The translations under genes and the position numbers were made by a program. The notes under the pieces are model-generated. The model had not been told where the DNA came from. It made no database searches and saw nothing but the letters and a program-made list of their open reading frames with translations. Below, one piece after another: positions 8,550-64,000 of a stretch of 64,000 nt of DNA (position 1 is the first letter of the stretch; each line of letters starts with the position of its first letter). The DNA is from Mobula hypostoma (Eukaryota): NCBI RefSeq assembly GCF_963921235.1, contig NC_086097.1, forward strand, positions 92,258,001 through 92,322,000, written 5' to 3'.

Positions 8550-8585
8550 AGTCGACGTTTCAGGCCGAGACCCTTCGTCAGGACT
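8550..8585 (-). ncRNA. Minimal type-I hammerhead ribozyme motif (antisense arm)
   Basis: Reverse complement reads AGTC-CTGACGA-AGGGTCTCGGCCT-GAAAC-GTC-GACT. Confidence 0.75.
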
Positions 8586-8621
8586 AGTCCTGACGAAGGG
8601 TCTCGGCCTGAAACGTCGACT
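8586..8621 (+). ncRNA. Minimal type-I hammerhead ribozyme motif
   Basis: Stem I AGTC/GACT, core CTGACGA, stem II GGGT-CTCG-GCCT, GAAAC, GTC cleavage triplet. Confidence 0.75.
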
Positions 8622-10705
8622 GCACCTCTTCCTACAGATGCTGCTTGGCCTGCTGCGTTCACCAGCAACTTTCGTAAAAAAGCATTCATTTTAGAGGAAT
8701 CTAACGGACATTGAGATTTATACAGCTCAGCATAAAAGTCTTGAAAAATCTTATTAATTTCTTCATATTCCTGAGCTAAGGTACCATCTTTCCTACGAAT
8801 TTTCATGATTTGCCTTTTGGCTGCAGCCATTTTTAATTGAGATGCAAGCAGTTTATTATTTTTAACTCCAGACATATAAAATTGGCTCTTTAACTTAAGC
8901 AAATAACCTTCAATGGGATGAGTTAATAACAGGTTATATTGTGATTGAACTTCCACCCTTTGTTTAAATAAATCAGTATTGGGGGAAATTGCATAAATAT
9001 TATCTAAATCTTTAATTTGTTTTGAAATTCTATCTAATTCTGCTTTAGTTTTTTTTTAAGTTTAGCTGAATAAGAAATAATCTGACTGCGTAAAAATGCT
9101 TTAAATGTATCCCATATAACTAATTTAGACATACCCCCTATGTCATTAAAAAGAAAAAATTCTTTTATCTGGGTTTCAATGAAAGTGACAAAGTCAGAGT
9201 TTTGCAATAATGTCTGAGACATGCGCCAAGGTGGGCGGGCAAGAGTGACATCATCAAATTCAAAAGACAAACTCAGAGGTGCATGATCAGATATAGCAAT
9301 AGCGTCATATTCGCAGGTTTTAACACTAGACAAGAAGCGGGGATCGACGATAATAAAATCGATCCTCGAATATTTTTTATAAACGTGTGAGAAGAAAGAA
9401 TATTCTCTATTGTCGGGAAGAAGATACCTCCACAAATCAATCAACCCAAAATCAATCAAAAAGGAATTAATAAATGACACGGATCGATTTGGAAGTCGCT
9501 GATTGGTTGAGCTCTTATCAATCATAGGATTTAAACAACAATTAAAATCCCCACCCATTATGAGCATATATTCATTTAAGTCAGGCAGTAAAGCAAATAC
9601 CTTTTTAAAAAAAGAAGGATCATCTAAGTTAGGACCATACAAATTAACCAAAACAACTTTTCTGTTACAGATTGTTCCTTTAACAATTAAAAATTTACCA
9701 TTAGAATCTGACTCAATATCCTCTTGAATAAATATATTAGGTTTAATGAAAATAGACACGCCTTTTGTTTTACTCTGAGAAGTAGAGTGGAATTGCAAAC
9801 CATTCCACCATCTAAAAAATCTGTTTTGATCTCCTGCCCTGATATGTGTCTCTTGAGCAAAAATTATGTCAGGTTGGAATCAGTTAATAATTTTAAAAGT
9901 CTTTTTTCGTTTAATAGGATGATTCCAACCACATACATTCCAACTTATTATATTAATCCGTTTGAACAGCATACTATAATTTCATTCTACTTTATACATG
10001 CACAAAGCACATACCAATGCAGGATAATCAAAGATGGTGGTGATGAAGAATACAACCAAATAAAAAACACACATGCTCCGAACCACCCAATGGGAAAAAA
10101 CTAACTCTAAACCCACCCACCCACACCCAGAAACCCGAAAAAGGCAAGCGATCTACGATAGAATTCAAAGCTGCTGACTGCTCTGTCTGTGTTTTCTTTC
10201 CCTCCCCCCAATTAGTAAAAAAGTAGAGTGACCTTGTGAAAAAGACAATAAAGTCTCAGGAAAAAAAGGTATTTACATTCCATCGACCGATAAACAAGAA
10301 AGAACCAAAATAATGTTATCTCTTAGAGAGAAAAACCAGTGCCATGTTTAAGTTTAATATTAATTCCCTAAAAAAGCTTTAAATTCAATTATAAAATGTT
10401 ATAAAAGAACAGAAAAATATATAAAAAGCCCTATTAGTAGGAAAAACTACCAATTAGCTTCAAAGTATTAAATTAAAGGAACAAATCGCCTTATCTTCTT
10501 CCCTCAGTCATAAAATGTCCAGAGATCATTTGAGCAGAGATACTTAAACCATAAATCTTTCCAAAGGAAAACCGATAATATGCAACAAAGAACAACTCCC
10601 TATGTTCTTTAATTAGTCTCTTGATGAAATATACAAGTGACCTTCATAAATCTTCTTTCCAAAATGCGAATAATATACAAATAGCCAAACAGCCTTTCAG
10701 ATGGA

Positions 10706-11527
10706 TCATTCAACAGCAGTGTCGGTGACAGCAGCAGGGAAAGCCTGAACAAAATCCACTGCAGCTTTTGGATCAAAAGAAGTACGAGGAGGAGAATTAG
10801 GAGGGAAAATTTTAAGTCTTGTCGGATACCTCAGAGATGCGAAAAGATTCTTATCATGTGCTTGTTTCATTACCAGGGCAAATTTTGATCTCTCTTGGAT
10901 AATCTTCGTAGAAGCGGAGCTCAGATTCCATAAATCTAAAAACTCTCTGTTTTCTTGCCTGTCGTATTATTTGTTCTTTAATTTTAAAGTGATGGAAGCA
11001 AACCAGAACAGATCTTGGTTTACTAGAGTCCTTCGATTTCGAGATAAACGCCCTGTGTGCCCTTTCTATAGCAGGCGGCTTTGATAGAATGGTAGGAAAT
11101 AAAGTGTGGAAAAGCCTACCAAAGTAAGCCATTAGATCTCCACCTTCAGCTCTTTCCTGCAGCCCAACAATTCTTATATTCCTTTGTCGAGACCTAGTTT
11201 CCAGTCTATAATCTTATTTTGATATCTTTCCAAACGAGTTGTAGCTTCAGACAGCTTTTGCTTAGTTATCTTCAATTCCTCTTCGTGTGAAGTAACTTGA
11301 GTTTCCAGGTCTTTAAGTTTTCCCAGAAATGACTTCATTTCATTACTATTCTTTTCCAGTTGGTCTTTAATTGATCCATTCTGATCCTTAATTGAATTCA
11401 GTGTCCGAACAATATCTTCAGCCCACGATGGCATTTCATCAGATCTTTCCTTTTGCACCTTTCCTTTCCCATTACCTTTATCACCAGGTTCAGGTAAATT
11501 CTTCCCATTTCTTGTAGACATAGACAT
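10706..11527 (-). pseudogene. L1 ORF1 (coiled coil plus RRM, Transposase_22-like), frameshifted
   Basis: Heptad-rich N-terminus (LKDLETQV...LERYQNKIID), then NIRIVGL-like segment and IERAHR...KPRSVLVCFHHFKIKEQI...FYEDY. Confidence 0.85.
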
Positions 11528-12464
11528 ATTGGTCACCCTCAAGAGACAACAAGTAAAAATTTTAAATTCAAAGCTTAAAGTAGGGGGAAAGAAAGAAAAC
11601 TAAGAGCAGCAGAAAAATACTGCTACTTCATTGTTATCAAAGATGTGATAACAGCACATTTGGAAAGCGGTGAAATTATCGGACAAAGTCAGCATGGATT
11701 TGTGAAAGGAAAATCATGTCTGACAAATCTCATAGAATTTTTTTGAGCATGTAACTAGTAGAGTGGATAGGGGAGAACCAGTGGATGTGGTATATTTGGA
11801 TTTTCAAAAGGTTTTTGACAAGGTCCCACACAGGAGATTAGTGTGCAAACTTAAAGCACACAGTATTGGGGGTAAGGTATTGATGTGGATAGAGTTGGCA
11901 GACAGGAAGCAAAGAGTGGGAATAAATGGGACCTTTTCAGAATGGCAGGCAGTGACTAGTGGGGTACTGCAAGGCTCAGTGCTGGGACCCCAGTTGTTTA
12001 CAATATATATTAATGACTTAGATGAGGGAATTAAATGCAGCATCTCCAAGTCTGCGGATGATATGAAGCTGGGCGGCAGTGTTAGCTGTGAGGAGGATGC
12101 TAAGAGGATGCAGGGTGACTTGGATAGGTTAGGTGAGTGGGCAAATTCATGGCAGATGCAATTTAATGTGGATAAATGTGAGGTTATCCACTTTGGTGGC
12201 AAAATCAGGAAAACAGATTATTATTTGAATGGTGGCCGATCAGGAAAAGGGGAGGTGCAACGAGACCTGGGTGTCATTGTACACCAGTCATTGAAAGTGG
12301 GCATGCAGGTACAGCAGGCGGTGAAAAAGGCAAATGGTATGCTGGCATTTATAGCAAGAGGATTTGAGTACAGGAGCAGGGAGGTACTACTGCAGTTGTA
12401 CAAGGCCTTGGTGAGACCACAACTGGAGTACTGTGTGCAATTTTGGTCCCCTAATCTGAGGAAA

Positions 12465-12588
12465 ACACAAAATAATCTGCAGATGCTGGGGTCAAAGCAA
12501 CACTCACAACACGCTGGAGGAACTCAGCAGGTCGGGCAGCATTCCACAGATGCTGCCCGACCTGCTGCGTTCCTCCAGTGTGTTGTGA
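12465..12588. mobile_element. 124-bp Penelope-tail hairpin insertion in CR1
   Basis: Inverted arms of about 39 bp (about 12504-12542 and 12550-12588) with a 7-nt spacer. TSD CTGAGGAAA at 12456-12464 and 12589-12597. Confidence 0.85.
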
Positions 12589-31540: not shown

Positions 31541-31925
31541 GAATTTTCTCCCTGTTTAGAAAATAATCTATGCCTTTAATCTTGGGATCCAACGCTAAAC
31601 TGATTTTCCCAATCTACCTGCATATTGAAATCCTCCATGACTATCATAACATTGCCCTTTTTACATACCTTTTTTACCTCCCATTGTAATTTGTATCCCA
31701 TACCTTGGCTACTGTTTGAAGGCCTGTATAACTCCCATCAGGGTCTTTTTACTCCTGCAGTTTCTTAGCCCAACCCACAAGGATTCTACATCTCCTGATC
31801 CAATGTCATCCCTTTCTAAAGATTTGATTTCTTTTTTTTAAACTAAAAAAGTCACTCCACAACCTCTGCCCACCCGCCTGTCCTTTTGATACAATATACA
31901 TCCTTGGATGTTAAGCTCCCAACTA

Positions 31926-33527
31926 CAAACCCCATTTCCAGAAAAGTTGGGATATTTTCCAACATGCAATAAAAACAAAAATCTGTGATATGTTAATTCA
32001 CGTGAACTTTTATTTATCTGACAAAAGTACAAAGAAAAGATTTTCGATAGTTTTACTGACCAACTTAATTGTATTTTGTAAATATACAGAAATTTAGAAT
32101 TTGATGGCTGCAACACACTCAACAAAAGTTGGGACAGAGTTAAAATAAGATTGAAAAGTGTACAGAATATTCAAGTAACACCAGTTTGGAAGACTCCACA
32201 TTAAGCAGGCTAATTGGTAGCAGGTGAGGTATCATGACTGGGTATAAAAGTAGCATCCATCAAAGGCTAAGTCTTTGCAAGCAAGGATGGGTCATGGCTC
32301 ACCCCTTTGTGCCAAAATTCATGAGAGAATTGTTAGTCAGTTCAAAAGGAACATTTCTCAACGCAAGATTGCAGAGATTTTAGGTCTTTCAACATCTACA
32401 GTACATAATATTGTAAAAAGATTCAGAGAATTAGAGACATCTCAGTGCATAAAGGGCAAGGTCGGAAACCACCGGTGAATGCGAGTGATCTTCGAGCCCT
32501 CAGGCGGCACTGCCTAAGAAACCATCATGTTACTGTGACAATTATAGCCACCTGGGCTCGGGAATACTTCTGAAAACCATTGTTACTCAACACAGTCTGT
32601 CGCTGCATCCAGAAATGCAACTTGAAGCTGTATTATGCAAGGAGAAGCCATACATCAACTCTATGCAGAAACGCCAGTGAGTTCTCTGGGCCCGAGCTCA
32701 TCTCAGATGGACTGAAAGACTGTGGAACAGTGTACTGTGGTCAGATGAGTCCACATTTCAGCTAGTTTTTGGAAAAAATGGGCGTCGAGTTCTCCATGCC
32801 AAAGATGAAAATGACCATCCAGATTGTTATCAGCGAAAGGTGCAAAAGCCAGCATCTGTGATGGTATGGGGGTGCATCAGTGCCCACGGCATGGGTGAGT
32901 TGCATGTATGTGAAGGTACAATTGACTCTGAGGTGTATATTAGGATTTTAGAGAGACATATGTTGCCATCAAGGCGACGTCTCTTCCCAGGACGTCCATG
33001 CTTATTTCAGCTGGACAATGCCAGACCACATTCTGCACGGGCTACAACAGCGTGGCTTTGTAGACACAGAGTGCGTGTGCTTGACTGGCCTGCTGCCAGT
33101 CCAGATCTATCTCCTATTGAAAATGTATGGCGCATCATGAAGAGAAGAATCAGACAACGGAGACCACAGACTGTTGAGCAGCTGAAGTCTTATATCAAGC
33201 AAGAATGGACAAAATTTCCAATTGCAAATCTACTACAATTAGTATCCTCAGTTCCAAAACAATTAAAAACTGTTATTAAAAGGAAAGGTGATGTAACACA
33301 ATGGTAAACATGCCTCTGTCCCAACTTTTGTTGAATGTGTTACAGCCATCAAATTCTAAATTTGTGTATGTTTACAAAATACAATTAAGTTGGTCAGTAA
33401 AACTATTGAAAATCTTTTCTTTGTACTTTTGTCAGTTAAATAAAGGTTCACGTGAAGTAACATATCACAGATTTTTGTCTTTATTGCATTTTGGAAAATA
33501 TCCCAACTTTTCTGGAAATGGGGTTTG
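31926..33527 (+). mobile_element. Full-length Tc1 DNA transposon (about 1.6 kb) with about 210-bp IR/DR-type TIRs
   Basis: TA-CAAACCCCATTTCCAGAAAAGTTGGGA ... TCCCAACTTTTCTGGAAATGGGGTTTG-TA. Inner repeat AAAAGTTGGGAC. Confidence 0.95.
32287..33307 (+). pseudogene. Tc1 transposase (DD34E), disrupted by frameshifts and a stop
   Basis: HTH (SQRKIAEILGLSTSTVHNIVKRF), WSDES, VMVWGCI, FQLDNARPH, SPDLSPIENVW. 34 residues counted between the second D and E. Confidence 0.9.
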
Positions 33528-34600
33528 TATAATCTCCTTTCAGTCATGACTCAGTGATGCTCATAACATCGTACCTGCCGCTCTCTAACTGCGCTACAAG
33601 ATCATCTACCTTATTCCATATACTATGTGCATTCAAATATAACACCTGCAATCCTGTGTTCATCACCCTTTTCGATTTTGCCCCATGTTATATTTCAACT
33701 CATCCCAGTGAATTCAACTTTGTCCTTTCATCCACCTGTCCTTCCTCACAGTCTCACTACACACTGCATCTGTTGCACACCAACTGCTTCATCCTCAGCC
33801 CTATCAACTCGGTTCCCAACCCTGGCCGAATTAGTTTAAACCATCCCAGCAGCTCTAGTGAACCTGCCACAATGACATTGGTCCCCTTCGGGTTCAGGTG
33901 GAACCTGTCCTTGTTGTGCAGGTCAGGCCTTCTCCACAGGAAATCCCAATGATCCGGAAATCAGCCCCACATTCAACTGCCAAATCATCCTATTCTTATT
34001 CTCACAGGCATGTCCAGAGACTATTACCCCAGAGGTCCTGCTTTTCAAATTTCTACTTAACTCACTATATTCTTTCTTCAGGACCTCATCCCTTTTCATA
34101 CCCATGTTGTTGGTACCAGTATGTACCACGACTTCTCGCTGTTCCACTCCCTCTTTGGAATGCTGTGGACCCAGTCAGACACATCTCGGACCCTGCCACC
34201 TGGGAGGCAACATACCATCCAGGTGTCTCTTTCACGTCCACAGATTCTCCTGTCTGCTCCTCAGCTATGGAATCCCCTATCACTACTGCACTCCTCTTCT
34301 CCCCCTTCCTTTCTGAGCATCAGAACTAGGCTGAGTACCAGAGACCCAGTCGCTGTGGCTTCCCCCAGTAGGTCGGCCCTCCTACAGTATTCAAAGTGTT
34401 ATTATTATTATTGTTATTAAGGGGAACTTGCTCCAGGGGTACTCTTCTCTGGCTGTCCACCTACCTGCCTCCTGCTACTCAGGAATTGCTGCATCCCTAT
34501 AGCTCTTATCTATTCTCCCATATGAGTGGAATATCAGCCAGATGCAGCTCGATACACTTCATACAGATGTAGTTATCAGGGAGACTGGAGGTCTCCCAGT

Positions 34601-35205
34601 TAGGATTGCCAACTTATTCACTTCCAAATAAGGGACAAAAGTAGCAGTCAAATATGGGACATTTGTGTTTACCCCGAGAAAGACTACCATGACCATGAAG
34701 CCTTGTGTGGGCACCTGTGTGCACATGTGTGACGTGCGCATACGTGATATGCGCATACGTGACATGCGCATACGTGACATGCGCATACGTGACGTGCGCA
34801 TGTGTGTACATGCTGTTTTATTTCTACAAATCAGTTTTGGCTTAACCTTCCTGATTCTGTGAAGTGAAACTACACTGTACATACATTATTTCTACTTTAT
34901 ATAGGCTGTGTATTTATCACATCATTCTTGCTTTTACTATATGTTAGTGTGATTTTAGGTTTTATGTGTTATTTGGTATGATTTGGTAGGTTATTTTTTG
35001 GGTCTGGGAACACTCAAAAATTTTTCCCATATAAATTAATGGTAATTGCTTCTTCGCTTTATGCCATTTTGGCTTACGAACAGTTTCATAGGAACGCTCT
35101 ACCTTAGCAGGGGAAATACGGGACAAGGGCGGTCCCGTATAGGACAAACCAATTTAGCCCAATATACGGGATGTCCCGGCTAATACAGGACAGTTGGCAA
35201 CCCTG
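34601..35205. mobile_element. hAT-type MITE (605 bp)
   Basis: TIRs TAGGATTGCCAACT / AGTTGGCAACCCTG. 8-bp TSD CTCCCAGT at 34593-34600 and 35206-35213. Confidence 0.9.
34728..34802. repeat. 15-bp tandem repeat (GTGACRTGCGCATAC) x about 5
   Basis: Directly visible; it generates the spurious MRIRD/YAHVT repeat ORFs. Confidence 0.9.
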
Positions 35206-36285
35206 CTCCCAGTGTTCCCACCTCTGACATGAAGAACATACCACTAACCCTGGATACATTCTCAATGCATTAGCTATGTCCTAATAGACAAAAAAAAGAG
35301 AAAAAAAACTTACTTCAGACCTCCGCCTGTTCTCCCAAATCCTGCCACTCCGGCAACATCTGTTTCCACGACGGCTACTCTGTTGTCACCTTGCATTTTC
35401 TCCCCCATTTGGTCCTTGCTAAGTTACTAACAACCCAAGCAACCACCTGCTCCGCACTCAAGTTGTGACAGGCCTTGTTCGCTTTTGAAAACTGGCACGT
35501 AAACTCCACGAGGAACTGTCACCAACCCTCTCTGCCAAAAGAAATTGTAGTTCTTTTTCCCTCTGTAAATAGCTGAAAGAAAAGGAATATCAAGTGTGTA
35601 TATGCCAGCAAATTTGTTAATTGATTTACTTTGAAACTTTCAGTCAGCCTCCTTGTAACTTGTTTAGAATTAAGCAATATCTGCGTTATTTCCGGTTTAA
35701 GGTGTATGCTTGGAACCACTACTGCGTTGGTGCTCCAAAGATGTTTGCAAAGTGACAGCATAACTTCTACCTATTTGCATCCAGGTAGAACAGTAGCATT
35801 CCAGAAGTTTATTTAAGTGCAAGTAATGAGTATAAGATATGGTAATGTCTTTTAATACAATGGTGTACCAGGCACTGCTTGAGATTTACTACCTTCAATA
35901 AGCGAGGCTCTACCTTAATTTTGCCCTTGCAAACAACAACACAGAAGAACCTATAAACACAACTCTTTTAGCCTTTTTCCTATTACTTGCATCCCTCCAT
36001 GTTACTTTAGCAACCCATCGACCTCAATCCCTAGCTGTCTTGGCATTGCCACTGTCTTACCAATTCCCACCTTATAAAAGGAAAGTATTATTTCCTTTAC
36101 AAATCCAAAATGGACGATCTCCCATTTGCCCGCACCGAAATCTATTTATCATAGTTTTCCCTATTTGTTTAATCAGTTGATAACTGTTCAAAATTTAATG
36201 CTCTCGCCTACATTGCTTTTTTTGCAACATCAACCAACTTGAGTATGCAACTTTCTACTCAATTATCTATATCATATATAAATAC

Positions 36286-36456
36286 GTTACATTGTTCGTC
36301 CATCATTGACGTCGATGAGGACCTCGACACCATTATGATGGTGTCGAGACTAGGGCGTGATTTGGATTTAAGTGAGGGAGAGTTGCGCAGCGTCAGCCTC
36401 ACTCTCTCTTCCCAATTCCCATCTGGGTCCAGTGGCAAGACAGAGTCTAGACGGTG
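36286..36456 (-). mobile_element. RTE-type 3' tail fragment with 11-bp stem-loop
   Basis: CTCGACACCAT-TATG-ATGGTGTCGAG hairpin. AATAC duplicated on both sides within an old antisense LINE. Confidence 0.55.
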
Positions 36457-37191
36457 AATACAGTGAACAATTGAAACCCCGGTTCAGATCCATGCAGGAC
36501 ATTATGTTCATATCTTACCACAGCTGTTATCCCTATCTACCTATAAACCTTAAACATCTCCTGGTGCTTAGCAAATTTCTTAAATGAACCAGCAATCTGC
36601 TTTCAGTTCCATGAGTTTTAACTTTTGGTAGCTCCATTACACAAGACTTAATCAAACACCTTCTGAAAATATGCTCCAAATATCCACAGGCAGCCACCAT
36701 TGAAAATGAAAGAAGTGCAGATGCTGGAAATCTGAAAGGAGAAATGACGTGAAGCTCCTCAGCAACGAATGTGTGTGGAAAGACAAACAGAGTTAACGTA
36801 ACTTTGAGTTACACAAACTAAATGCTTCATCAGCATCTCAGCTCGGAACATCAACTTTCCACGATGCTGCCTGACATGCTGAGTTCTTCCAGCATTTTGT
36901 ATGTGTTACTCCAGATATCCAGTATCTACAAAATCTCTTGTGTTTACATAACCTCTGTTCTTCAGACTGCAGTGTTGACACTGTTGCTCTTTCTACAGAT
37001 GCCCGAACTGTTGAGTGTTTTCAACATTTTGTATTATTACCCCTGTCCACTCCTTTAGTCTGCTCCAAAAAGAGTGTGTATATAATGGTACGCAAACACG
37101 AGGAATTCTGCAGATGCTGGAAATTCAAGCAACACACATCAAACTTGCTGGTGAACGCAGCAGGTCGGGCAGCATCTCTAGGAAGAGGTAC

Positions 37192-37227
37192 AGTCGACGT
37201 TTCAGGCCAGGACCCTTCGTCAGGACT
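37192..37227 (-). ncRNA. Minimal type-I hammerhead ribozyme motif (left arm)
   Basis: Reverse complement reads AGTC-CTGACGA-AGGGTCCTGGCCT-GAAAC-GTC-GACT. Confidence 0.72.
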
Positions 37228-37522
37228 AACTGAAAGAAGAGCTAGTAAGAGATTTGAAAGTGGGAGGGGGAGGGAGAGATCCAAAATGATAGGAGAAGAC
37301 AGGACGGGGAGGGATGGAGCCAAGAGCTGGACAGGTGATTGGCAAAGGGGAAGGGGATATGAGAGGATCATGGGACAGGAGGCCCAGGCAGAAGGAAAAG
37401 AGGGAGGGGGGGAAACCCAGAGGATGGGCAAGGGGTATAGTCAGAGGGACAGAGGGAGAGAAAGGAGAGTGAGAGAAAGAACATGCGTAATAACGCACGG
37501 GGTAAGAGGGGGAGTTGGGGCA

Positions 37523-38946
37523 TTAGCGGAAGTTAGAGAAGTCGATGTTCATGCCATCAGGTTGGAGGCTACCCAGACGGAATATAAGGTGTTGTTCCTC
37601 CAACCTGAGTGTGGCTTCATCTTTACAGTAGAGGAGGCCGTGGATAGACATATCAGAATGGGAATGGGATGTGGAATTAAAATACGTGGCCACTGGGAGA
37701 TCCTGCTTTCTCTAGCGGACAGAGCGTAGATATTCAGCAAAACGATCTGCCAGTCTGCATCGGGTCTCACCAATATATAGAAGGCCACATCGGGAGGACC
37801 AGATGCAGTATATCACCCCAGCCGACTCACAAGTGAAGTGACACCTCACCTGGAAGGACTGTTTGGGGCCCTGAATGGTGGTAAGGGAGGAAGTGTAAGG
37901 GCATGTGTAGCACTTGTTCCGCTTACAAGGATAAGTGCCAGGAGGGAGATCAGTGGGGAGGGATGGGGGGGACGAATGGACAAGGGAGTCGTGTTGGGAG
38001 CGATCCCTGTGGAAAGCGGGGGGGGGGAAGGGGGGGAGGGAAAGATGTGCTTAGTGGTGGAATCCCGTTGGAGGTGGCGGAAGTTACGGAAAATAATATG
38101 TTGGACCCGGAGGCTGGTGGGGTGGTAGGTGAGGACCAGGGGAACCCTATTCCTAGTGGGGTGGCGGGAGGGTGGAGTGAGAGCAGATGTGCGTGAAATG
38201 GGGGAGATGTGTTTGAGAGCAGAGTTGATAGTGGAGGAAGGGAAGCCCCTTTCTTTAAAAAAGGAGGACATCTCCCTCGTCCTGGAATGAAAAGCCTCAT
38301 CCTGAGAGCAGATGCGGCGGAGAACGAGGAATTGCGAGAAGGGGATAGCATTTTTGCAAGAGACAGGGTGAGAAGAGGAATAGTCCAGATAGCTGTGAGA
38401 GTCAGTAGGCTTATAGTAGACATCAGTAGATAAGCTGTCTCCAGAAATAGAGACAGAAAGATCTAGAAAGGGGAGGGAGGTGTCGGAAATGGACCAGGTA
38501 AACTTGAGGGCAGGGTGAAAGTTGGAGGCAAAGTTAATAAAGTCAACGAGCTCAGCATGCGTGCAGGAAGCAGCGCCAATGCAGTTGTCGATGCAGCGAA
38601 GGAAAAGTGGGGGACAGATACCAGAATAGGTTCGGAACATGGATTGTTCCACAAAGCCAACAAAAAGACTGGTATAGCTAGGACCCATTCAGGTGCCCAT
38701 AGCTACACCTTTAGTTTGGAGGAAGTGGGAGGAGCCAAAGGAGAAATTATTAAGAGTAAGGACTAATTCCGCTAGGCGGAGTAGAGTGGTGGTAGAGGGG
38801 AACTGATTAGGTCTGGAATCCAAAAAGAAGCGGAGAGCTTTGAGACCTTCCTGGTGGGGGATGGAAGTATATTGGGACTGGACATCCATTGTGAAAATAA
38901 ATCGGTGGGGGCCAGGGAACTTAAAATCATCAAAATGTTTAAGAGC
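37523..38946 (-). pseudogene. Penelope-like RT plus GIY-YIG endonuclease, left arm (catalytic YIDD mutated to CIDN; frameshifts)
   Basis: FTMDVQSQYTSI, GVAMGT, FLRCIDNC, PLVLTYHP. Confidence 0.88.
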
Positions 38947-40364
38947 GCTCTTAAACTTTTCGATGACTTTAAATTCCCTGGCCCCCACCGCTTTATTTTC
39001 ACCATGGATGTCCAGTCCCAATATACTTCCATTCCCCATCTGGAAGGTCTCAAAGCTCTCCGCTTCTTTTTGGATTCCAGACCTAACCAGTTCCCCTCTA
39101 CCACTACTCTACTCCGCCTAGCGGAATTAGTCCTTACTCTTAATAATTTCTCCTTTGGCTCCTCCCACTTCCTCCAAACTAAAGGTGTAGCTATGGGCAC
39201 CCGTATGGGTCCTAGCTATGCCTGCCTTTTTGTTGGCTTTGTAGAACAATCTAAGTTCCAAACCTATTCTGGTATCTGCCCCCCACTTTTCCTTCGCTAC
39301 ATCGACGACTGCATTGGCGCTGCTTCCTGCACGCATGCTGAGCTCGTTGACTTTATTAACTTTGCCTCCAACTTTCACCCTGCCCTCAAGTTTACCTGGT
39401 CCATTTCCGACACCTCCCTCCCCTTTCTAGATCTTTCTGTCTCTATTTCTGGAGACAGCTTATCTACTGACGTCTACTGTAAGCCTACTGACTCTCACAG
39501 CTATCTGGACTATTCCTCTTCTCACCCTGTCTCTTGCAAAAATGCCATCCCCTTCTCGCAATTCCTCCATCTCCGCCTCATCTGCTCTCAGGATGAGGCT
39601 TTTCATTCCAGGACGAGGGAGATGTCCTCCTTCTTTAAAGAAAGGGGCTTCCCTTCCTCCACCATCAACTCTGCTCTCAAACGTATCTCCCCCATTTCAC
39701 GCACATCTGCTCTCAAATCCTCCCGCCACCCCACTAGGAATAGGGTTCCCCTGGTCCTCACCTACCACCCCACCAGCCTCCGGGTCCAACTTATTATTCT
39801 CCGTAACTTCCGCCACCTCCAACGGGATCCCACCACTAAGCACATCTTTCCCTCCCCCTCCCCTCTGCTTTCCGCAGGGATCGCTCCCTACACGACTCCC
39901 TTGTCCATTCGTCACCCCCCCTATCCCTCCCCACTGATCTCCCTCCTGGCACTTATCCTTGTAAGCGGAACAAGTGCTACACATGCCCTTACACTTCCTC
40001 CCTTACCACCATTCAGGGCCCCAGACAGTCCTTCCAGGTGAGGCGACACTTCACCTGTGAGTCGGCTGGGGTGATATACTGCGTCCGGTGCTCCCGATGT
40101 GGCCTTCTATATATTGGCGAGATCCGACGCAGACTGGGAGAGTGTTTTGCTGAACACCTACGCTCTGTCCGCCAGAGAAAGCAGGATCTCCTAATGGCCA
40201 CACATTTTAATTTCACATCCCATTCCCATTCTGACATGTCTATCCACGGCCTCCTCTACTGTAAAGATGAAGGCACACTCAGGTTGGAGGAACAACACCT
40301 TATATTCCGTCTGGGTAGCCTCCAATCTGATGGCATGAACATTGACTTCTCTAACTTCCGCTAA
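38947..40364 (+). pseudogene. Penelope-like RT, Cys linker and GIY-YIG endonuclease, right arm (5'-truncated, one frameshift near 39860)
   Basis: FTMDV, GVAMGTRMGPSYA, FLRYIDD, PFLDL, PCKRNKCYTC linker, GVIYCVRCSRCGLLYIGE, HF...H, GMN. Confidence 0.92.
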
Positions 40365-40634
40365 TGCCCCACCGCCCCCTCGTACCCCATCTTTTATATA
40401 CACACATTCTTTCTCTCAGTCTCCTTTTTCTCCCTCTGTCCCTCTGACTATATTCCCTGCCCATCCTCTGGGTTTTCCCCCCGGGCCTCCTGTCCCATGA
40501 TCCTCTCATATCCCCTTTGCCTATCACCTGTCCAGCTCTTGGCTCCATCCCTTCCCCTCCTGTCTTCTCCTATCATTTTGGATCTCCCCCTCCCCCTCCC
40601 ACTCTTAAATCTCTTACTAGCTCTTCCTTCAGTT

Positions 40635-40670
40635 AGTCCTGACGAAGGGTCTCGGCCTGAAACGTCGACT
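40635..40670 (+). ncRNA. Minimal type-I hammerhead ribozyme motif (right arm); predicted cut after 40666
   Basis: AGTC-CTGACGA-AGGGTCTCGGCCT-GAAAC-GTC-GACT. Confidence 0.75.
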
Positions 40671-42279
40671 GTACATCTTCCTAGAGATGCTGCCTGACCT
40701 GCTGCGTTCACCAGCAACTTTGATGTGTGTTGCTTGTATATAATGGTAGCTGATCTGAAATCTCCCTCATTCTACCACTCTTGAAAGAAACTGTCGATCC
40801 CACAGGGTCATTAATATAGAAAGTTTTTCCATCACCTCTTTACTAACCCAGTTCTTCCTGCGTGAATCTTTAGGAATGTTTGCAGGAGTTATTAGAAGAA
40901 CATCAACCTAACTCTTAGCACAACCAGCATTCAATAGCACAAGCTCATCTAGAATTCTGTGCAGCCTTTTGTGCACTGTAAACCTAATCATTCAGAATGC
41001 GCTGAACAGATGTTTTTAAAAAAAGGGTTTCAGTAACTTAACATTAGAGATGGCCATGTAATTTAAACTGAAAGCATTTCTGAAATGAAGGAATTAGTGA
41101 TAAATTGATTTGAATGGATTGGGACATAGACTTGGCCTATGGAAATTTTGCCCTTCAGACTGTAAGCCATTTACTTGTAGGCTATAATTAACCAAATGAA
41201 TTGTAGCTCTGTAAATATCAGTCAAGCAGAACAATGCTGCTATAAGTTCCACAGAGACATCTTAACATGGTTCACTTTTGGTGAGAGTTGCTGCATCTCC
41301 CTAGATGAGTTTAAAACCAAAGAGAAAATCACTTCTTGTTGCTTGACTGCACCCCTCTAAATATTGATTCAATGTGCCATTGTGAAAGCTCTGTGCTCAA
41401 TACAGTCATCTTGGATATCCAATAGTCAGAGAAGACAACGCTAAATAACATACTTTCATATCTGGGTCTCCCCGAATTTCTTTCCATAAAACCATTCATT
41501 GGTCCAACACTTAGTCCTCTTTTAAACAAATTTTGTTGAATTCCACTTCAACCAGACTTGATTATGACACAGAAGCCGGCCATTTAACCAGGTCAATTTT
41601 ACCGCCTGCACGGCCACATTGTCAATCCCATTTCCCTGAACCATTGCAATTTATTTTCTTTCACCTGCTTGTCAACTCTTGTTTGATTCTTTTTGCTATT
41701 TACCTGCACAAGGCTGTCATTTACAGTGCCCAGTTAACTTTTTCCAGGGAAGGGGATTAAAGGGAGTTAAAAGAGTGAGGGTGTATGTTTAAGGCGACAG
41801 GTGAAAGATTTAAAAGGGGCCTGAGGGGCATCTTCTTCACACAGAGGACGGTGTATGCATCAAATGAGTTGTCAGAGAAAGTGATGCAACAATTAAAATG
41901 CATTAGGATAGGTACATGGTAAGGGGGGGGCGGATTTAGAGGGATACGGGCCAAATAGGGCTATAGCACCATTGCCAGCATTACGATGGGGTCTGTTTCT
42001 GTGCTGTATTGCTCAAAGACTCTACGACACCACGTCCTTGTGATGCGAGAGGAAGCTGGAGCACCCGAGGGTAACTCATGCGAGCTTGGCACTAACTTTA
42101 CCAGAGGTCAGGGTTGAACCTAGATGGCTGGAGTTGCGATACAGCAGCTCCACTAACTGTACCACTGTGCCTCCTGTGAGAAATTGCCCAATTCTGCGAA
42201 TCTGCCATTTTCATCCTTGGCATTCGCCTTCTACAGAGCCATCTGGAAAGCACCAAGCTTGCAAAGCCCTTCCTTACAG

Positions 42280-47925: not shown

Positions 47926-49240
47926 TGACAAGACAGTGTCGATAACTTCACTCACCTCAACAATGAACTGACTCCACAATCTACAGACTCACTTTCAGTG
48001 ATTCTACAACTTACGTCCTCAGTATAATTTATTTACTTTTATTTATTATTGCCATGATTTGAGCTATTGGATGTTTGTCAATCTTCATGTATAGTTTTTC
48101 ATAAATTCTATTGTATCTATTTATTTTCCTGTAAATGCCTGCAAGAAAATGAACCTCAGGGTAGTACATGGTGACAGATGCGTACTTTGAAATTTGAACC
48201 TTTCCCCATGGTGAGCAGAGCTGGTCATTGGCTTCAGAAAGTGGGGTAGAGTATACATTCCTGTCTGTATCAATGGCACTGAGATGGAGATAGTTGTGAG
48301 ATTCACGTTCCTGGGTGTAAGTGCCATCAACAATTTATCCTGATCCAACCTTGTGGGATACTATGGCCACAAAACACAGTAACGCTTCAACACACTCTTC
48401 TACGTGACAAAAATAAACCAAATCAACAGGATAAGGGAAAAAATAAGTCAGATAGATTGAGAAATATTAGTGTGAAGAGGAGAGCATGTTCATTCTTGTT
48501 TAGGTAGGGCTTTGACAGAGGTGTTCAGTATAGTACTGCTCACCAGGAATACTTTACTGGAGCAAATTCCATGCTATTCAGAGCAAAACAAGCAATTCAG
48601 AATGCCTCCCCAAACCAAATATGTATCTTTGTATAACACATGAAAATTGGTATACCAGTAGCTCTCGCAAACAGGAAAACAATGGTGAGCAGATAAAGTA
48701 GTTTAAGAATGTTTATTGAGGGATAAATATCAGTCAGCACAATGAGAAGAATCTACCTGCTCATTTAAATAGCTTCAAAGAACCTTGAACTTAAGTTGTA
48801 ATGTACTATATTTGGGATTCACTTTTCAGGATGTGGTTGCTGCCAAGATCCACATCCCTGATTGTGCATTCATAATTATCCTTGAGAACACGGTAACAAG
48901 CTGCTCTCTGAATCATCACATTCTTTCTGGTGATGGTACTCCCAGAGCACTGCTGTGGAAGAAGTTCCGAGATTTAAAGCAAAAAAAAACCTAAATCAGG
49001 ACAGAGAGTGCAGAGGGGTGATGGCTGCTATGTAGAAGCGAGGGGAAGGGGGATACACAGGGTGTGCGTGTGCGTGCTAGACGATGGGCATTATCAGCCA
49101 GGTGCCCAACAACGGTGAAGCTGAAGGACAGCAATACATTTTCAAAATCAGGATGGTAGGCTATTTGAAAGGGAACCTGCAAGTGGCTCGCTCAAACACC
49201 TGCTACCCTTGCTCTTGGCGGTAGAAGCTGAAAGGTTTGG

Positions 49241-50006
49241 TCCCCAGACAGTCCTTCCAGGTGAGGCGACACTTCACCTGTGAGTCGGCTGGGGTGATAT
49301 ACTGCATCCGGTGCTCCCAGTGCAGCCTTCTATATATTGAGGAGACCCGATGCAGACTGGGAAACCGTTTCGCTGAACAGCTACGCTCTGTCTGCCAGAG
49401 AAAGCAGGATCTCCCAGTGGCCACACATTTTAATTCCACATCCCATTCCCATTCTGATATGTCTATCCACAGCCTCCTCTACTGTCAAGATGAAGCCACA
49501 TTCAGGTTGGAGGAACAACACCTTATGTTCCGTCTGGGTAGCCTCCAACCTGATGGCATGAATATTAACTTCTCTAACTTCCATTAATGCCCCACCTCCC
49601 CTTCGTACTCCATCCCTTATTTATTTATTTATTTTTCTCTCTTTTTTCTCCCTCTACCCCCTCTCACTATAACTCCTTGGGACCATCCTCTGGGCTCCCC
49701 TCCCCCTTTCTTTCTCCCTAGGCTTCCCGTCCCATGATCCTCTCCTTTCTCCAGCCTCGTATCCCTTTTGCCAATCAACTTTCCAGCTCTTGGCTCCATC
49801 CCTCCCCCTCTTGTCTTCTCCTATCATTTTGGATCTCCCCCTCCCCGTCCCACTTTCAAATCTCTTACTAGTTAGTCCTGATGAAGGGTGTCGGCCCGAA
49901 ACGTCAACTGTACCTCTTCCTAGAGATGCTGCCTGGCCTGCTGCGTTCACCAGCAACTTTTGAGTGTGTTGCTTGAATTTCCAGCATCTGCAGATCTCCT
50001 CGTGTT
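49241..50006 (+). mobile_element. 5'-truncated single (non-palindromic) Penelope-like insertion: GIY-YIG domain plus 3' tail
   Basis: ORF GVIYCIRCSQCSLLYIEE...HF...H...GMN. TSD AAGGTTTGG at 49232-49240 and 50007-50015. Confidence 0.92.
49874..49909 (+). ncRNA. Minimal type-I hammerhead ribozyme motif (one stem-I mismatch)
   Basis: AGTC-CTGATGA-AGGGTGTCGGCCC-GAAAC-GTC-AACT. Confidence 0.65.
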
Positions 50007-59683: not shown

Positions 59684-60545
59684 TGTTACGTACCCCATAA
59701 CTGGGTTGCCAAACCAGCAGAAATGGATCACTCAGTTGGAGTCTGGATTGCTAGAACTAAGAAAGTTTTATTAAAGAAACAAGCAACACAGTACTCTAAT
59801 CAAAAGGATAATAAATGCAATAGTTCAGCAATGATAAACATACATGTACACAGAATTAAGATAACAGGATCAATCAAGCTCTATCGTTGTCTAGGGGTAA
59901 ATGACCAGTTTCAAAGTGACGCACAGTTCAGTTCAGTTCGCAGTAATCGCTGCCGTGGCGATGGACAGTGGGGGGGAAGGAGAGAGAGAGCAAAACGAAT
60001 GAATATTCAAAACGGCTTCCACACAGACCTTTGCAGTCAGCTTTCGGGCGAGTCCTTTGTGATGTCATCTGAAGTCACCGACCGTGACCCCTCCGTTTCC
60101 AGATACGATCGTTTCTCTGCGGTGAACCCGGCACCCAGGCAAGAGTGGACACACACCAGGTTCCCGCCGATCGTGCCTTTCCACCCTGTGCATCTATGGC
60201 TTGGTCCCGCAACTGGCCTTCCAAAAACTTCCCACCGACTTGTGAGAGACGCACCGCTTCCAGGGTCTCGTTACCTCCGGTGTCGTGTGTGTTGCCTTAG
60301 CGAACCTGTCCCTTTTTATCCCCCTGCTGGGGTATCGCCTTGTCCATCACTTCAAACAGTTCAGGGTTCAAAGGGGGAGCCGATCTTGACAGCTCTCCTT
60401 CCCCTTCATTAACATCTCCAAATGCTGCTCCATTGTTTTCCTTATCTCTCTCTCTCTCCTGAAGACAGGTGGCAGACCAACTGCTGATTCCACTGGTGCC
60501 AGCACAGGACAGCTAACATCTTAATCTATGTGTATTCTCGTCACA
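59684..60545 (-). repeat. 3' LTR (862 bp, TG...CA)
   Basis: TGTTACG...CGTCACA. Its first about 300 bp match 63698-64000 with 6 transitions and one 1-bp indel by manual count. Confidence 0.95.
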
Positions 60546-60560
60546 CTTCCCCCCTTTAAG
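60546..60560 (-). promoter_or_regulatory. Polypurine tract
   Basis: Minus strand CTTAAAGGGGGGAAG directly abutting the 3' LTR. Confidence 0.9.
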
Positions 60561-60654
60561 GATTTTTACCGGGGGTAAAAATTACAAACATGAATACATT
60601 ATTCGATACACTCAAATATACATCTTTATCAGCTATTTGGCTAATACAGCGAAT

Positions 60655-61661
60655 TTGAAGTTGTCAACACCTGACAGACAGTCAGCTATCACATTTTCTG
60701 TTCCTTTTATATGTGTTATTAATAATCCCTTAGACCAGGCTCCAACTTAGCAAACTTTATAGTGGCCAAAAACACTGATGAATTGTGATCAATGTAACCT
60801 CTCATTTGGTCTCGTCCCGGACCACAATAACAAGGGTCGTCCCATTCCGACTTAGTTTTCTCTCGCAAGGGCTTAGCAGGAGGGGGAGGGGTAGTAACCG
60901 CAGAGTTATTGCAAAACTTCCTACAGTACCCCACCATCTCCAAGAGCCTTCTGAGGGCCCTCTTGTCTGTCGGGGTTGGGATGTCAGAGATAGCCCGCAC
61001 TTTAGCTTGCATCGCTGCCAGCTGCTCCTGTGTCACCACAATTCCCAGGTAAGTGACCTTTGTATGGCCAAACTCATTTTTTTCAAGGTTCACTATCAAG
61101 CTGGCTTCAGACAGCCGTATTACATCGCCAATACACACACCTGTGTTCGTCAGCCCTTTAGTCACTGAATTACTCATTCTATAGGGTTGTTGCTCGCTCG
61201 GCTGACCTAGTGTAACAAGCACCACCCAACGTCCCAGTTCTTTGCATTGCCTCGGGACAATCAAACATACGCGTGCGAGTCGTTTAATTACTTCTCCTAA
61301 AGAGTCGCTTTTTTCGGGGATTAAGGGAGAGACCTTATCAGCAGAGCTGGCCAAAACAATAGCCTTCTCCCATCTGGTCAATACCATACTCATCTTTTCA
61401 AAATGTTTTTTTTTCTCTTACCGGGGGGCCCCTAGCTTCATTGATTTCCGCGCTAACACCGACTAGGTTTGTTAGCATATCAAAAGCCTGTGACCGTCTC
61501 AGTTCGCGTCGGCCATAATCAATAACATCCTTCCTCCTGGGCAGCCGGTAAACCTCTTTCATGATTCCACCAACTGTTTCCTCCAACACCGCAAAATGTC
61601 CACCGGGGGGTACCTCGTGGGCCAGGTTAAAAACCTCATCCCCATAACTCTTTTGCACCAC
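60655..61661 (-). pseudogene. Heavily deleted pol remnant in integrase-RT-RNaseH order
   Basis: LAHEVPPGGH (integrase Zn-binding remnant), QQPYRM, LIVNLEKNEFGHTKVTYLG, LRRLLEMVGYCRKF, YIDHN, HIKGTENVIADCLS. No YxDD or DDE core. Confidence 0.75.
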
Positions 61662-61664
61662 CCC

Positions 61665-63598
61665 CTATTCCTCATCTGCGGGCACGGTACTTGGTCTCCC
61701 TTTCTTCCTTAGCACTTCCTCCTCCACACAATAGCCTACTAGTTCCCTTGTTAAGTCTGTGTCAGAGAGAGCAGTCTCTGCCAAAATCATCAGCCCCTCG
61801 TCTCGCTTCTGCGCCTGCACAAATTCTTTCCTGGCTAATTCTAAGTCTGTCTCAGCTCCCTCACTACCTCTTGTTTCACTACACTCCTTCTTTTCACTTT
61901 CTACCCCCTTCTCGTACAAGGCTGGCAGAAACGTCTCAGCTAAATTTACTACCGCAGTCCCGTGATGAACCTGTGAGTCCATGGGCAGGGCCTCAATGCT
62001 GGCAGGCTGACCTGTCAATCTCAAGGCTGGGAACACGATTCCCCCGGCGAGGTCATTACCGAGCAAGACTTCCACGCCTTTCATCGGTAATTTGGGCCTC
62101 ACCCCGATCGTGACTAGTCCAGAGACCAGGTTGCTTTGTAAGCGTATCTGGTGCAAAGGGACTGCCTCTGTCCCTTCCCCAATACCTTTGACCTTGACCT
62201 CCCCAGTCTGGGTCTCTGAGCTAAACTCTAATACACTCTTCAGTATCAGTGACTGACACGCTCCCGTGTCTCTCCAGATCTGCACTGGAACTGGTTTTAA
62301 CCCCTCCTTCACTGACACCAATCCGGCCAAGATAAACCTCTCGCGCCCTTCCTGAACTTTGGCAGACCTTTCCTCTCCTAGCGGTTCGTTTACCAGCTCG
62401 ATACAGCCAGTCAAAATCGCCGTTTTTCCTTTTCCCGTCTCCTTCTTTGGGGCAAAGCACCTGGACGCAAAGTGTCCGACTTTCCCGCAATTATAATAGA
62501 CGACCCCAGGAGACTTCCTACCAGACTGCTCCCGGCCTACCTTATCCTTCTCACTAGTCCCCGGCTTACTTTCTGACTTTTCTGGCAGACTCTCCCCACC
62601 ATCCTGACTACCCTTCTGGTAGCCTTTACTTGGGGCAAACTTCATTTTATGCGTCAACGCATACTCATCCGCTAACTTAGCAGTTGCGGCTAACGTGGCT
62701 GCCTCTTTCTCATCTAGGTAGGGTCTCATACCCTCAGGGACACAACCTTTAAACTGCTCAATCAGGATCAGCTGTAGCAGTCTGTCATAATCCCCCTCTA
62801 CCCCCTTCGAGGCGCACCAACGCTCACAATATGTCTGCATCTCACGGGCAAACTCTAAATACGTGCGGTCCCACTGCTTCCTCGCATTCCGGAACCAACT
62901 CATAAATCCTGAGGATGGCCTCCTTCACCACCTCATACCTCTGGGCATCTTCCACGGACAAAGCTGAGTAAGTTTGTTGGGCTTTCCCTTTCAGTACACT
63001 CTGAAGCAAAACATCCCACTTATCCCTCGGCCAGTCCTGACTTGTAGCAACTTTTTCGAAATGGAGAAAGTACCGATCCACGTCGGTATCGTCAAATGGG
63101 GGAACCAGCCTAACCTCCTGGGTCGCCCGGAACCCTCCACCTTGGTTCGGCACGGGCCCCTGCTCTGCCCTCATCTTTAACTTCTCCAGCTCAAATTCCC
63201 TTTCCCTCTGTTTCTCCTCTCGCTCCAACTGTCTCTCTCTCTCTCTCCTGCCTTTCTAACTCTCTCTCCTTCTCTTCTTGCTCCAACTGTCTATCCCTCT
63301 CTTTCTCTTCTCGCTCCAACTGCCGTACCCGGAACTTGTGCTCGAGTCTCAGTTTTTCAAGCTGCACCTGTACCGCGTCTCCAGCAGGTTTTTCAATAGA
63401 CACCACCTCCAGCTCGCCTTGGGGAAACACACCTTTAGATACATAGTGCTCTACGATAGCTCTGTGTATCTCCTCTCTCCTCATTGTCGACTTCCCCTTA
63501 GCAAGATTCAACCGTTTGGCCACAGCTACCAATTCCGATTTCCTGGCATCCTCTAATGCCTCCAAGGTCGGCACCTTTATAATTTCCTCAGCCTCCAT
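61665..63598 (-). pseudogene. Gag (coiled coil, SCAN-like capsid, zinc knuckle) plus aspartic protease, two frameshifts
   Basis: VPPF..DVDRYFLHFEKVA...WP...W, LILIEQF, AKLADEY, YNCGKVGHFASRC, RDTGA, LLGNDL. Confidence 0.88.
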
Positions 63599-63674
63599 TT
63601 CTGCTGTTTGTCTTTTCTTTCTTTCAGGAATTTTGACCCAATCAATTTACTCCGTCCCAAATTTAGCGTTTAAA

Positions 63675-63694
63675 ATCGCGGACGAGAACCCCAC
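63675..63694 (-). promoter_or_regulatory. Primer-binding site, tRNA-Pro-like (imperfect)
   Basis: Minus strand TGGGGTTCTCGTCCGCGAT, a few nt after the 5' LTR, versus the canonical Pro PBS TGGGGGCTCGTCCGGGAT. Confidence 0.75.
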
Positions 63695-63697
63695 TTA

Positions 63698-64000
63698 TGT
63701 TACGTACCCCGTAACTGGGTTGCCAAACCAGCAGAAATGGATCACTCAGTTGGAGTCTGGATTACTAGAACTAAGAAAGTTTTATTAAAGAAACAAGCAA
63801 CACAGTACTCTAATCAAAAGGATAATGAATGCAACAGTTCAGCAATGATAAACATACATGTACACAGAATTAAGATAACAGGATCAATCAAGCTCTATCG
63901 TTGTCTAGGGGTAAATGACCAGTTTCAAAGTGACGCACGGTTCAGTTCAGTTCGCAGTAATCGCTGCCATGGCGATGGACAGTGGGGGGAAGGAGAGAGA
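63698..64000 (-). repeat. 5' LTR (partial)
   Basis: Direct repeat of 59684-59987. Confidence 0.95.

What the first reader, a model, noticed from the sequence alone, without database searches (positions are those of the whole stretch)
37077..40748. 3.64-kb zero-spacer palindrome of a Neptune-type Penelope element inserted as a single event
Seen: two arms of about 1.8 kb (RT core, Cys linker, GIY-YIG, UTR, hammerhead) diverge from AAGAGC|GCTCTT, bounded by a perfect 14-bp TSD. The arms differ by scattered substitutions and small indels (e.g. YIDD vs CIDN), which argues against an assembly mirror artefact and acts as an LTR-like clock. Both arms read SQYTSI where SLY is usual in this RT motif, suggesting one source template or arm-to-arm conversion. 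Established: long spacerless palindromes are normally unstable (cruciforms). Inference: read-through from either side yields a long dsRNA hairpin with a hammerhead near its 3' end, a potential endo-siRNA or ADAR substrate that could silence the family.
Basis: partly seen in the sequence, partly recalled or inferred. Interest (0 to 1): 0.75.

Follow-up and report, generated by a model that had tools for sequence, protein, structure and literature searches.

The report
Head-to-head Penelope retroelement palindrome
This 3.6-kb mirror repeat, in what is likely a cartilaginous fish genome, is two front-truncated copies of a very common Penelope-like jumping gene joined head to head with no gap, likely made in one insertion from one RNA; the layout is already known for these elements, and only its long, exactly symmetric arms stand out.

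Summary
The palindrome is real. Arms 37091-38946 (-) and 38947-40736 (+) have zero spacer, 97 mismatches in 1786 columns (5.4%) and a 14-bp TSD. Each arm is the 3' half of a Neptune-type Penelope-like element (PLE), and only the left arm has the 35-nt tail. Both arms stop at the same template base and share a central CG. Public contigs support both outer junctions in this species and, by 20 nt, the right junction in a second species. No listed contig spans the centre, so that test is open. Both arms share 3 alleles carried by under 1% of family depth, including SQY, which favours one source template. The layout is typical of PLEs (PMC8557442, PMC3846280): a second zero-spacer palindrome of this family lies at 8450-8672, and this scan noted many similar loci elsewhere in this genome. 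siRNA from inverted Penelope copies is also in print (PMC3681739). Transcription here is untested, and the hammerhead is predicted to be buried in the hairpin. Most likely mechanism (inferred): two cDNAs, primed from the two target nicks on one RNA, joined at the CG. Verdict: new member of a known kind, low interest.

The parts
37077..37090 (.). Left copy of the target-site duplication (14 bp)
   Evidence: an organism A contig covers 36887-37115 with 0 differences, 25 nt into the element
37091..37125 (-). 35-nt PLE tail, present on the left arm only
   Evidence: arm alignment; many family copies end at 37090/37094 (198 and 172 contigs with loose ends)
37192..37227 (-). Minimal type-I hammerhead motif, left arm
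   Evidence: motif scan
37091..38946 (-). Left arm: 5'-truncated Neptune-type PLE (second half of RT, Cys linker, GIY-YIG, 3' UTR/pLTR). Carries stops, CIDN in place of YIDD, and a frameshift in the C-rich tract
38946..38947 (.). Axis of symmetry: a CG dinucleotide shared by both arms, with no spacer
   Evidence: family contigs match the left arm through 38947, then continue with upstream element sequence (loose ends)
38947..40736 (+). Right arm: same truncation point (about residue 436 of a ~908-aa ORF), YIDD intact, frameshift in the same phase in the C-rich tract, no tail
39019..39021 (+). CAA (Gln) codon of SQY, mirrored in the left arm at 38872-38874; family reads Leu
   Evidence: row 38873 (99.7% of depth)
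39308..39467 (+). Approximate place of the longest identical run between the arms (163 columns; shuffle p=0.007); contains one of the three shared rare alleles
40635..40670 (+). Minimal type-I hammerhead motif, right arm
40735..40748 (.). Right copy of the TSD; its first 2 bases (TG) also match the element end
   Evidence: contigs 40714-41300 (organism A, 0 differences) and 40715-41300 (organism B, 5 differences)

Best explanation
It is a single insertion of a Neptune-type Penelope-like retroelement in which two 5'-truncated copies meet head to head, likely made when the element's enzyme primed cDNA from both nicked target strands on one RNA and the two cDNA ends paired through a shared CG. 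Shown: structure, TSD, one-sided tail, identical truncation point, CG overlap, three shared rare alleles, and recurrence of the layout in the window. Inferred: (1) a staggered cut leaves two 3' ends; (2) the left end starts at the tail-bearing start site and the right end 35 nt further in, helped by a 2-base match; (3) both cDNAs run to the same 5' end of a broken RNA, which explains the exact symmetry; (4) they join through self-complementary CG and are filled in. The source copy probably already carried the SQY change and was mobilised in trans. The insertion is a dead by-product: neither arm has the N-terminal half of the ORF. It became fixed, has apparently outlasted a species split, and the arms have drifted to 5.4%, which would lower its tendency to form cruciforms.
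For: Both outer ends are element 3' ends with a TSD, and the top strand of the left arm and bottom strand of the right arm each have cDNA polarity running from the flank. A purified PLE protein cleaves and extends both strands from two internal start sites that define the tail, and is predicted to be a dimer (PMC11167929). A zero-loop fold-back is not possible: 4-6 central bases cannot pair (PMC7999016). The second same-family palindrome also has no spacer and a self-complementary centre (GGACT|AGTCC), a TSD and a one-sided tail. One template: of 15 listed sites where >=90% of family depth differs from the left arm, 3 are shared by the right arm (p=0.003 at an assumed 2% homoplasy, from 40 of 161 rows shown). 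In 703 columns the arms differ by 7.0%, against 11.5% and 11.0% from the solo copy, with balanced private changes of 24 and 20. Both arms carry the organism A majority allele at 5 of 7 subfamily-type sites.
Against: No direct test separates double priming from fold-back. At 2 of 7 subfamily-type sites (columns 141 and 314) the arms carry different common alleles; 314 is a CpG, 141 is not. None of the 5 right-arm majority differences listed is shared, and that call did not list the three shared sites (the tool warned that differences went uncounted). Two of the 3 shared alleles lie in long identical runs (p=0.11), as conversion would give. The third palindrome (related family, ~12464-12588) has a ~7-nt asymmetric centre that suits fold-back. 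No centre-spanning contig was among the listed pieces (32 per call, out of more than 240,000). The in vitro work is on a Poseidon-clade element, not Neptune.
Confidence: 0.55

Rival explanations
1. Single insertion by fold-back (self-priming): one cDNA folds on its own 3' end, helped by a few untemplated bases or later trimming, is copied back, and jumps to the other target end at the 2-base match.
For: PMC3846280 reads palindromes at inverted PLE junctions as self-priming. It predicts identical truncation points and shared rare alleles equally well. The ~12.5-kb palindrome has a loop-like asymmetric centre. The short end shows microhomology to the TSD in both same-family palindromes.
Against: The main and mini palindromes have no loop remnant, and the template shows only a 2-base self-complement at the main joint. 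It needs an extra step to remove the loop. That paper's version assumes an antisense template.
Confidence: 0.28
2. Two different RNAs of the same young subfamily were copied at the two nicks in one event, and later arm-to-arm gene conversion spread some alleles (including SQY) and distorts the clock.
For: Two discordant subfamily-type sites, a 163-nt identical run (p=0.007), and 2 of 3 shared alleles in long identical runs.
Against: Two independent RNAs should not end at the same base, yet both same-family palindromes in the window are exactly symmetric. One shared allele (column 171) lies between the two discordant sites, so these are not one foreign tract.
Confidence: 0.11
3. The locus acts as a regulatory hairpin: read-through RNA forms long dsRNA that feeds endo-siRNA or ADAR and helps silence the family.
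For: If transcribed, the RNA would hold 27 perfect runs of >=21 bp (1156 nt in all, longest 163). siRNAs map to inverted regions of rearranged Penelope copies in transgenic Drosophila (PMC3681739).
Against: No host exon was identified near the locus: of 40 longer ORFs of the window tested, the clear Pfam hits were transposon-type domains (short exons untested). The joined 5' ends lack the element's promoter, and the sense direction of both arms points outwards (inference). In Drosophila those siRNAs did not silence Penelope efficiently. The hammerhead is predicted to be sequestered and has no same-strand partner for dimer folding (PMC4209133). The family is extremely abundant, so any effect would be collective.
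Confidence: 0.1
4. The exact zero-spacer centre is an assembly error (collapsed spacer or mirror chimera).
For: No listed contig spans the centre. PLE inverted units are known to trouble assemblies (PMC8557442).
Against: 97 substitutions and several indels between the arms, including 6 mismatches within 60 nt of the axis. A TSD is present, and both outer junctions are seen in contigs with outward-facing 3' ends. The same geometry recurs in the 87-nt-arm palindrome.
Confidence: 0.04

Closest known systems
Inverted (head-to-head) insertion units of EN+ Penelope-like elements (PMC8557442 Fig. 2 legend; Pen2a_Av, Pen2, Pen3 of Adineta vaga, PMC3846280)
   Same: [quoted passage not shown]
   Different: In the Adineta examples read, the inverted part is a ~180-210-nt pLTR beside a longer copy. 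Here both arms are ~1.8 kb and truncated at the same base, so the whole unit is one palindrome.
Neptune clade PLEs
   Same: C-terminal GIY-YIG with two Cys between GIY and YIG, CX2-5CxxC linker, minimal hammerhead, AT-rich target containing TATATA.
   Different: No tree against named Neptune references was built. The 5' half of the element is missing.
PAc (Poseidon, Anolis carolinensis) in vitro system, PMC11167929
   Same: Two reverse-transcription start sites a tail-length apart just downstream of the hammerhead, AT-rich target, and both strands cleaved and extended.
   Different: Different clade. The passages read do not describe how two cDNAs are joined or palindromic products.
L1 twin priming (mentioned in 10.1101/2024.12.14.628481; details recalled)
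   Same: Both target ends prime on one RNA, giving an inverted segment inside one TSD.
   Different: In L1 the two segments cover different parts of the RNA (recalled). Here both cover the same part, hence the palindrome.
Rearranged Penelope copies with long inverted repeats in Drosophila (PMC3681739)
   Same: Long inverted repeats that could yield dsRNA and siRNA.
   Different: There, siRNAs were observed in transcribed transgenic copies. Here transcription is untested and the arms are 5.4% diverged.

Membership tests
EN+ Penelope-like element | [quoted passage not shown] | tested here: met
   Order seen in both arms, now frameshifted. 112 of 120 homologues analysed carry the EN part C-terminal to the RT. 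Atlas top hits are GIY-YIG clusters at 0.96, with the family on 13-56% of members. Pfam hits are below cut-off.
EN+ Penelope-like element | CCHH motif with two Cys between GIY and YIG | tested here: met
   Right arm VIYCVRCSRCGLLYIG with downstream His residues; partly decayed in the left arm.
EN+ Penelope-like element | Hammerhead motif in the terminal repeat | tested here: met
   Minimal motif with stem I AGUC/GACU, 3-bp stem II and palindromic CG in both arms, as described in PMC4209133. Rfam gave no hammerhead hit. Cleavage untested.
EN+ Penelope-like element | TSD and optional 30-40-nt tail at one end | tested here: met
   12-14-bp TSD; 35-nt tail on the left arm only.
Neptune clade | CX2-5CxxC linker upstream of the EN (absent in Penelope/Poseidon) | tested here: met
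   CKRNKCYTC in both arms; present in 94 of the 97 homologues that match the GIY pattern, out of 120.
Neptune clade | RT phylogeny grouping with named Neptune elements rather than Nematis | not testable with these tools
   No named reference set was on hand. A 2026 preprint lists Neptune and Poseidon as the groups found in its sampled vertebrates.
Naiad/Chlamys | N-terminal endonuclease | tested here: not met
   The EN is C-terminal.
DNA transposon / MITE with terminal inverted repeats | Short TIRs around a unique interior or transposase | tested here: not met
   The whole unit is the inverted repeat and encodes RT/EN fragments.
Endo-siRNA hairpin locus | Transcript across both arms and derived 21-23-nt RNAs | not testable with these tools
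   No holder on record as RNA and only contigs were available.

The most novel reading that the evidence does not exclude
A Neptune family in this fish lineage routinely integrates by two-ended priming on one RNA and joins the cDNAs at self-complementary dinucleotides. This would seed a vertebrate genome with thousands of spacerless palindromes up to kilobases long that survive species splits. They would give a non-LTR element an LTR-like clock, and a large natural series for measuring palindrome tolerance and arm-to-arm conversion in a vertebrate germline.
Probability: 0.35. Interest if true: 0.5.

Novelty: new member of a known kind. Interest (0 to 1): 0.22.

Why it matters
This locus alone is a clean but ordinary dead PLE insertion. 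Its value is as one data point. The exact symmetry and CG overlap constrain the unsolved joining step of PLE integration: PMC11167929 says the steps after priming are yet to be validated. The apparent survival of a once near-perfect 1.8-kb-arm palindrome across a species split also bears on how tolerant vertebrate germlines are of such sequences. Both points need a genome-wide survey, not this single copy.

Tried and rejected
Own-genome search: no genome is held, so there is no copy phylogeny or genome-wide count. Rfam over the window found no hammerhead, only 4 sub-threshold miRNA-like hairpin hits, 3 of which mark the two small palindromes. PDB sequence search: 0 hits. Metagenome scan with a 24-nt element motif: 0 hits. 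Centre-spanning contig: not among the pieces listed in either call; the lists are cut and both calls are used, so the question is open. Left junction in organism B: no cover at 37056 in X5, of which about 84% was read. Organism C: one contig at 37056 lying 34 letters from its end, and almost no right-flank cover at 94% likeness; organism D has no right-flank cover. Filled or empty is undetermined for both. Expression: no RNA holder listed. The RNA-guess run X12 holds the family but not the unique flank bins, which is no evidence either way. The joint 38898->40636 seen in all four runs I read as another, older locus; not followed up. Excess mismatches near the axis: 6 in 60, p=0.11, not significant. 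The first hammerhead duplex calculation used wrong left-arm coordinates and was redone. Look-alike notes in other genomes: none. Rejected: MITE/DNA transposon; two unrelated insertions (one TSD around both, same truncation base); mirror artefact. Passages of 10.1101/2024.12.14.628481 on L1 foldbacks concern chromosome-scale rearrangements and were not used further. No supplementary files were read; figures and inventories there might hold equally long symmetric cases.
Full report
Observation. The feature is present as described. Two arms, 37091-38946 on the minus strand (1856 nt) and 38947-40736 on the plus strand (1790 nt), meet with no spacer. Alignment gives 1689 identities, 97 mismatches (5.4%; K2P 0.057; 69 transitions, 23 of them in CpG context) and 74 gap columns. 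TGTATATAATGGTA occurs only twice in the window, exactly at the two ends. The first two bases of the right copy also match the element, so the TSD is 12-14 bp. Only 10 pairs at the axis are perfect today. The left arm has 35 extra nt at its outer end.

What the arms are. Each is the 3' half of a Penelope-like element. Pfam hits are weak, but a protein search with residues 1-290 of the right arm, limited to longer proteins, returned 149 relatives. The best named hit is a Chiloscyllium punctatum protein at 69% identity, so the host is probably a cartilaginous fish (inference). Of the 120 listed proteins, 112 carry the endonuclease part C-terminal to the RT, 97 match a GIY-C..C-YIG pattern, and 94 of those 97 have an upstream CX2-5CxxC linker, as the arms do. 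PMC8557442 (passages) gives this linker as the mark of Neptune and Nematis against Penelope/Poseidon; I could not build a tree with named references. In the 60 homologues of 850-1000 aa, the arm begins at a median residue 436 of 908, so neither arm can encode a whole enzyme. Both arms are frameshifted in the same phase in a C-rich tract (23 and 17 nt), and the left arm has stops and CIDN. A minimal hammerhead motif lies 133 nt (left) and 98 nt (right) from the outer ends. It fits the dimer-dependent minimal motif of PMC4209133 (passages); Rfam does not call it.

Public contigs. No genome is held, so I laid contigs on each half. In organism A (possibly the source sample, so not independent), a contig with 0 differences covers 36887-37115, 25 nt into the left arm, and another covers 40714-41300. 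Both fall short of the tool's 31-letter bridging rule, but both show element 3' ends facing outwards. In organism B a contig of depth 3.3 covers 40715-41300 with 5 differences and ends 20 nt inside the element, so the site looks filled there; the left junction was not covered in B. No centre-spanning contig is among the 32 pieces listed in either call, out of more than 240,000, so the zero spacer rests on the assembly. Summed depth on the element is 10^4 to 6x10^5 times the flank depth. The tool warns that this is no copy number, but the family is clearly very abundant. Family contigs match the left arm through 38947 and then go on with upstream element sequence (loose ends). Both arms therefore begin at the same template base and overlap in the central CG.

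One template or two. One search showed 40 of 161 difference rows, 19 of them in the left arm. At 15 of these, 90% or more of family depth in organism A differs from the left arm. The right arm shares the rare allele at 3 (columns 74, 171 and 501; family 99.4-99.9% the other letter) and has the family allele at 12 (p=0.003 if homoplasy is 2%). Column 74 is the SQY codon; 116 of 117 aligned homologues have L and one has I. Against the solo copy at 49239-50006, the arms differ from each other by 7.0% and from it by 11.5% and 11.0% over 703 columns, with 24 and 20 private changes. At 7 sites where organism C carries an allele that is a minority in A, both arms have the A-majority allele at 5. Against this reading: the arms disagree at the other 2 (column 314 is a CpG, 141 is not); none of the 5 right-arm majority differences is shared; and that call did not list the three shared sites, under a warning of uncounted differences. 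A 163-column identical run is longer than shuffles give (p=0.007, post hoc), and 2 of the 3 shared alleles lie in runs of 96 or more (p=0.11), so some arm-to-arm conversion is possible.

Age. Flank differences are 36/1557 (2.3%) between A and B, uneven between sides (3.2% left, 0.9% right), and 42/652 (6.4%) between A and C. The arms differ by 5.4%, or 4.1% without CpG transitions. An arm clock predicts an insertion older than the A-B split and younger than the A-C split. That agrees with the filled right junction in B and with the arms carrying alleles that are rare in C. This is a rough bracket, not a calibration; the state of the site in C is undetermined.

It is not unique. A BLAST of the left arm against the window finds three insertions of this family: this one, a solo 5'-truncated copy with a 9-bp TSD at 49239-50006, and a second zero-spacer palindrome at 8450-8672. 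The latter has 87-nt arms, centre GGACT|AGTCC, a 15-16-bp TSD with one mismatch and a tail on one arm. A related family gives a third at about 12464-12588, with a 9-bp TSD and a roughly 7-nt asymmetric centre. So 2 of 3 same-family insertions in 64 kb are symmetric palindromes. The scan's notes list 8 similar loci elsewhere in this genome with like verdicts (unchecked AI notes, not counted as evidence). [quoted passage not shown] PMC3846280 (passages) reports abundant head-to-head inverted structures with palindromes at the junction and proposes self-priming.

Mechanism. Each arm has first-strand cDNA polarity running inwards from its flank (sequence). PMC11167929 (main text parts 1-2 of 4) shows a PLE protein cleaving and extending both strands of AT-rich DNA from two internal start sites that define the tail, and predicts a dimer. 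I infer that the two nicks each primed a cDNA, one from the tail-bearing site and one 35 nt further in, helped by the TG match. Both ran to the same broken 5' end of one RNA (no RNase H in these enzymes is recalled, not checked), and the ends paired through CG and were filled in (0.55). Fold-back explains shared alleles as well and fits the 12.5-kb case, but needs a loop that is absent here, since 4-6 central bases cannot pair (PMC7999016, passages) (0.28). Two RNAs plus conversion explains the discordant sites but not the symmetry (0.11). A wrong centre is unlikely (0.04). Five literature searches on PLE inverted or palindromic structure listed no paper on symmetric kilobase-arm PLE palindromes or on joining at self-complementary dinucleotides, but the library lacks most subscription papers and I read no supplements.

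The RNA inference. If transcribed through, the hairpin would hold 27 perfect runs of 21 bp or more. Such siRNA production is reported for rearranged Penelope copies in Drosophila, where it did not silence the element efficiently (PMC3681739, passages). Here transcription is untested. Of 40 longer ORFs of the window tested (110 listed), the clear Pfam hits were transposon-type domains, and no host exon was identified. The sense hammerhead would pair with the antisense copy at -79.3 kcal/mol, against -4.6 for its own minimal fold, and it has no same-strand partner to dimerise with, so it is predicted to be inactive in such a transcript.

Verdict. This is a real, old, dead head-to-head PLE insertion of a described kind. 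Long equal arms and a clean CG joint make it a good example for a genome-wide study of PLE joining and palindrome survival, but it is not a new kind of element. Interest 0.22.

Noticed in passing
window 8450-8672: Second zero-spacer palindrome of the same family (87-nt arms, 98% complementary, 15-16-bp TSD with one mismatch, tail on the left arm). Its axis sits at the first base of hammerhead stem I.
   Followed up: partly
window 12464-12588: Head-to-head stub of a related PLE family with a ~7-nt asymmetric centre and 9-bp TSD, inserted in an RT-bearing LINE fragment.
   Followed up: partly
window 49239-50006: Solo 5'-truncated copy of the same family, with tail and 9-bp TSD, no inverted arm; 12-nt deletion just before the hammerhead.
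   Followed up: partly
window 5963-11599: AT-rich, apparently long L1/Tx1-like LINE on the minus strand (endonuclease, RT, zf-RVT, coiled-coil ORF upstream), interrupted by the mini palindrome.
   Followed up: no
window 31924-33529: Tc1/mariner-type transposon with 216-bp terminal inverted repeats and a DDE_3 domain.
   Followed up: partly
window 59684-63989: 292-nt direct repeats, 98% alike and 4014 nt apart, around a 419-aa ORF with SCAN and zinc-knuckle hits; possibly an LTR retrotransposon remnant.
   Followed up: no
window 36281-36456: High-copy short repeat present in organisms A and B and skipped by an organism C contig: an insertion marker for the A/B lineage.
   Followed up: no
joint 38898->40636: A single-copy-depth joint between a long antisense arm and a stub starting at the hammerhead, seen in all four organisms laid; probably another, older asymmetric head-to-head locus.
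   Followed up: no
window 36856-37032: Older PLE-end-like fragments lie just left of the insertion.
   Followed up: no
window 34720-34806: 15-nt tandem repeat made of short self-complementary units.
   Followed up: no
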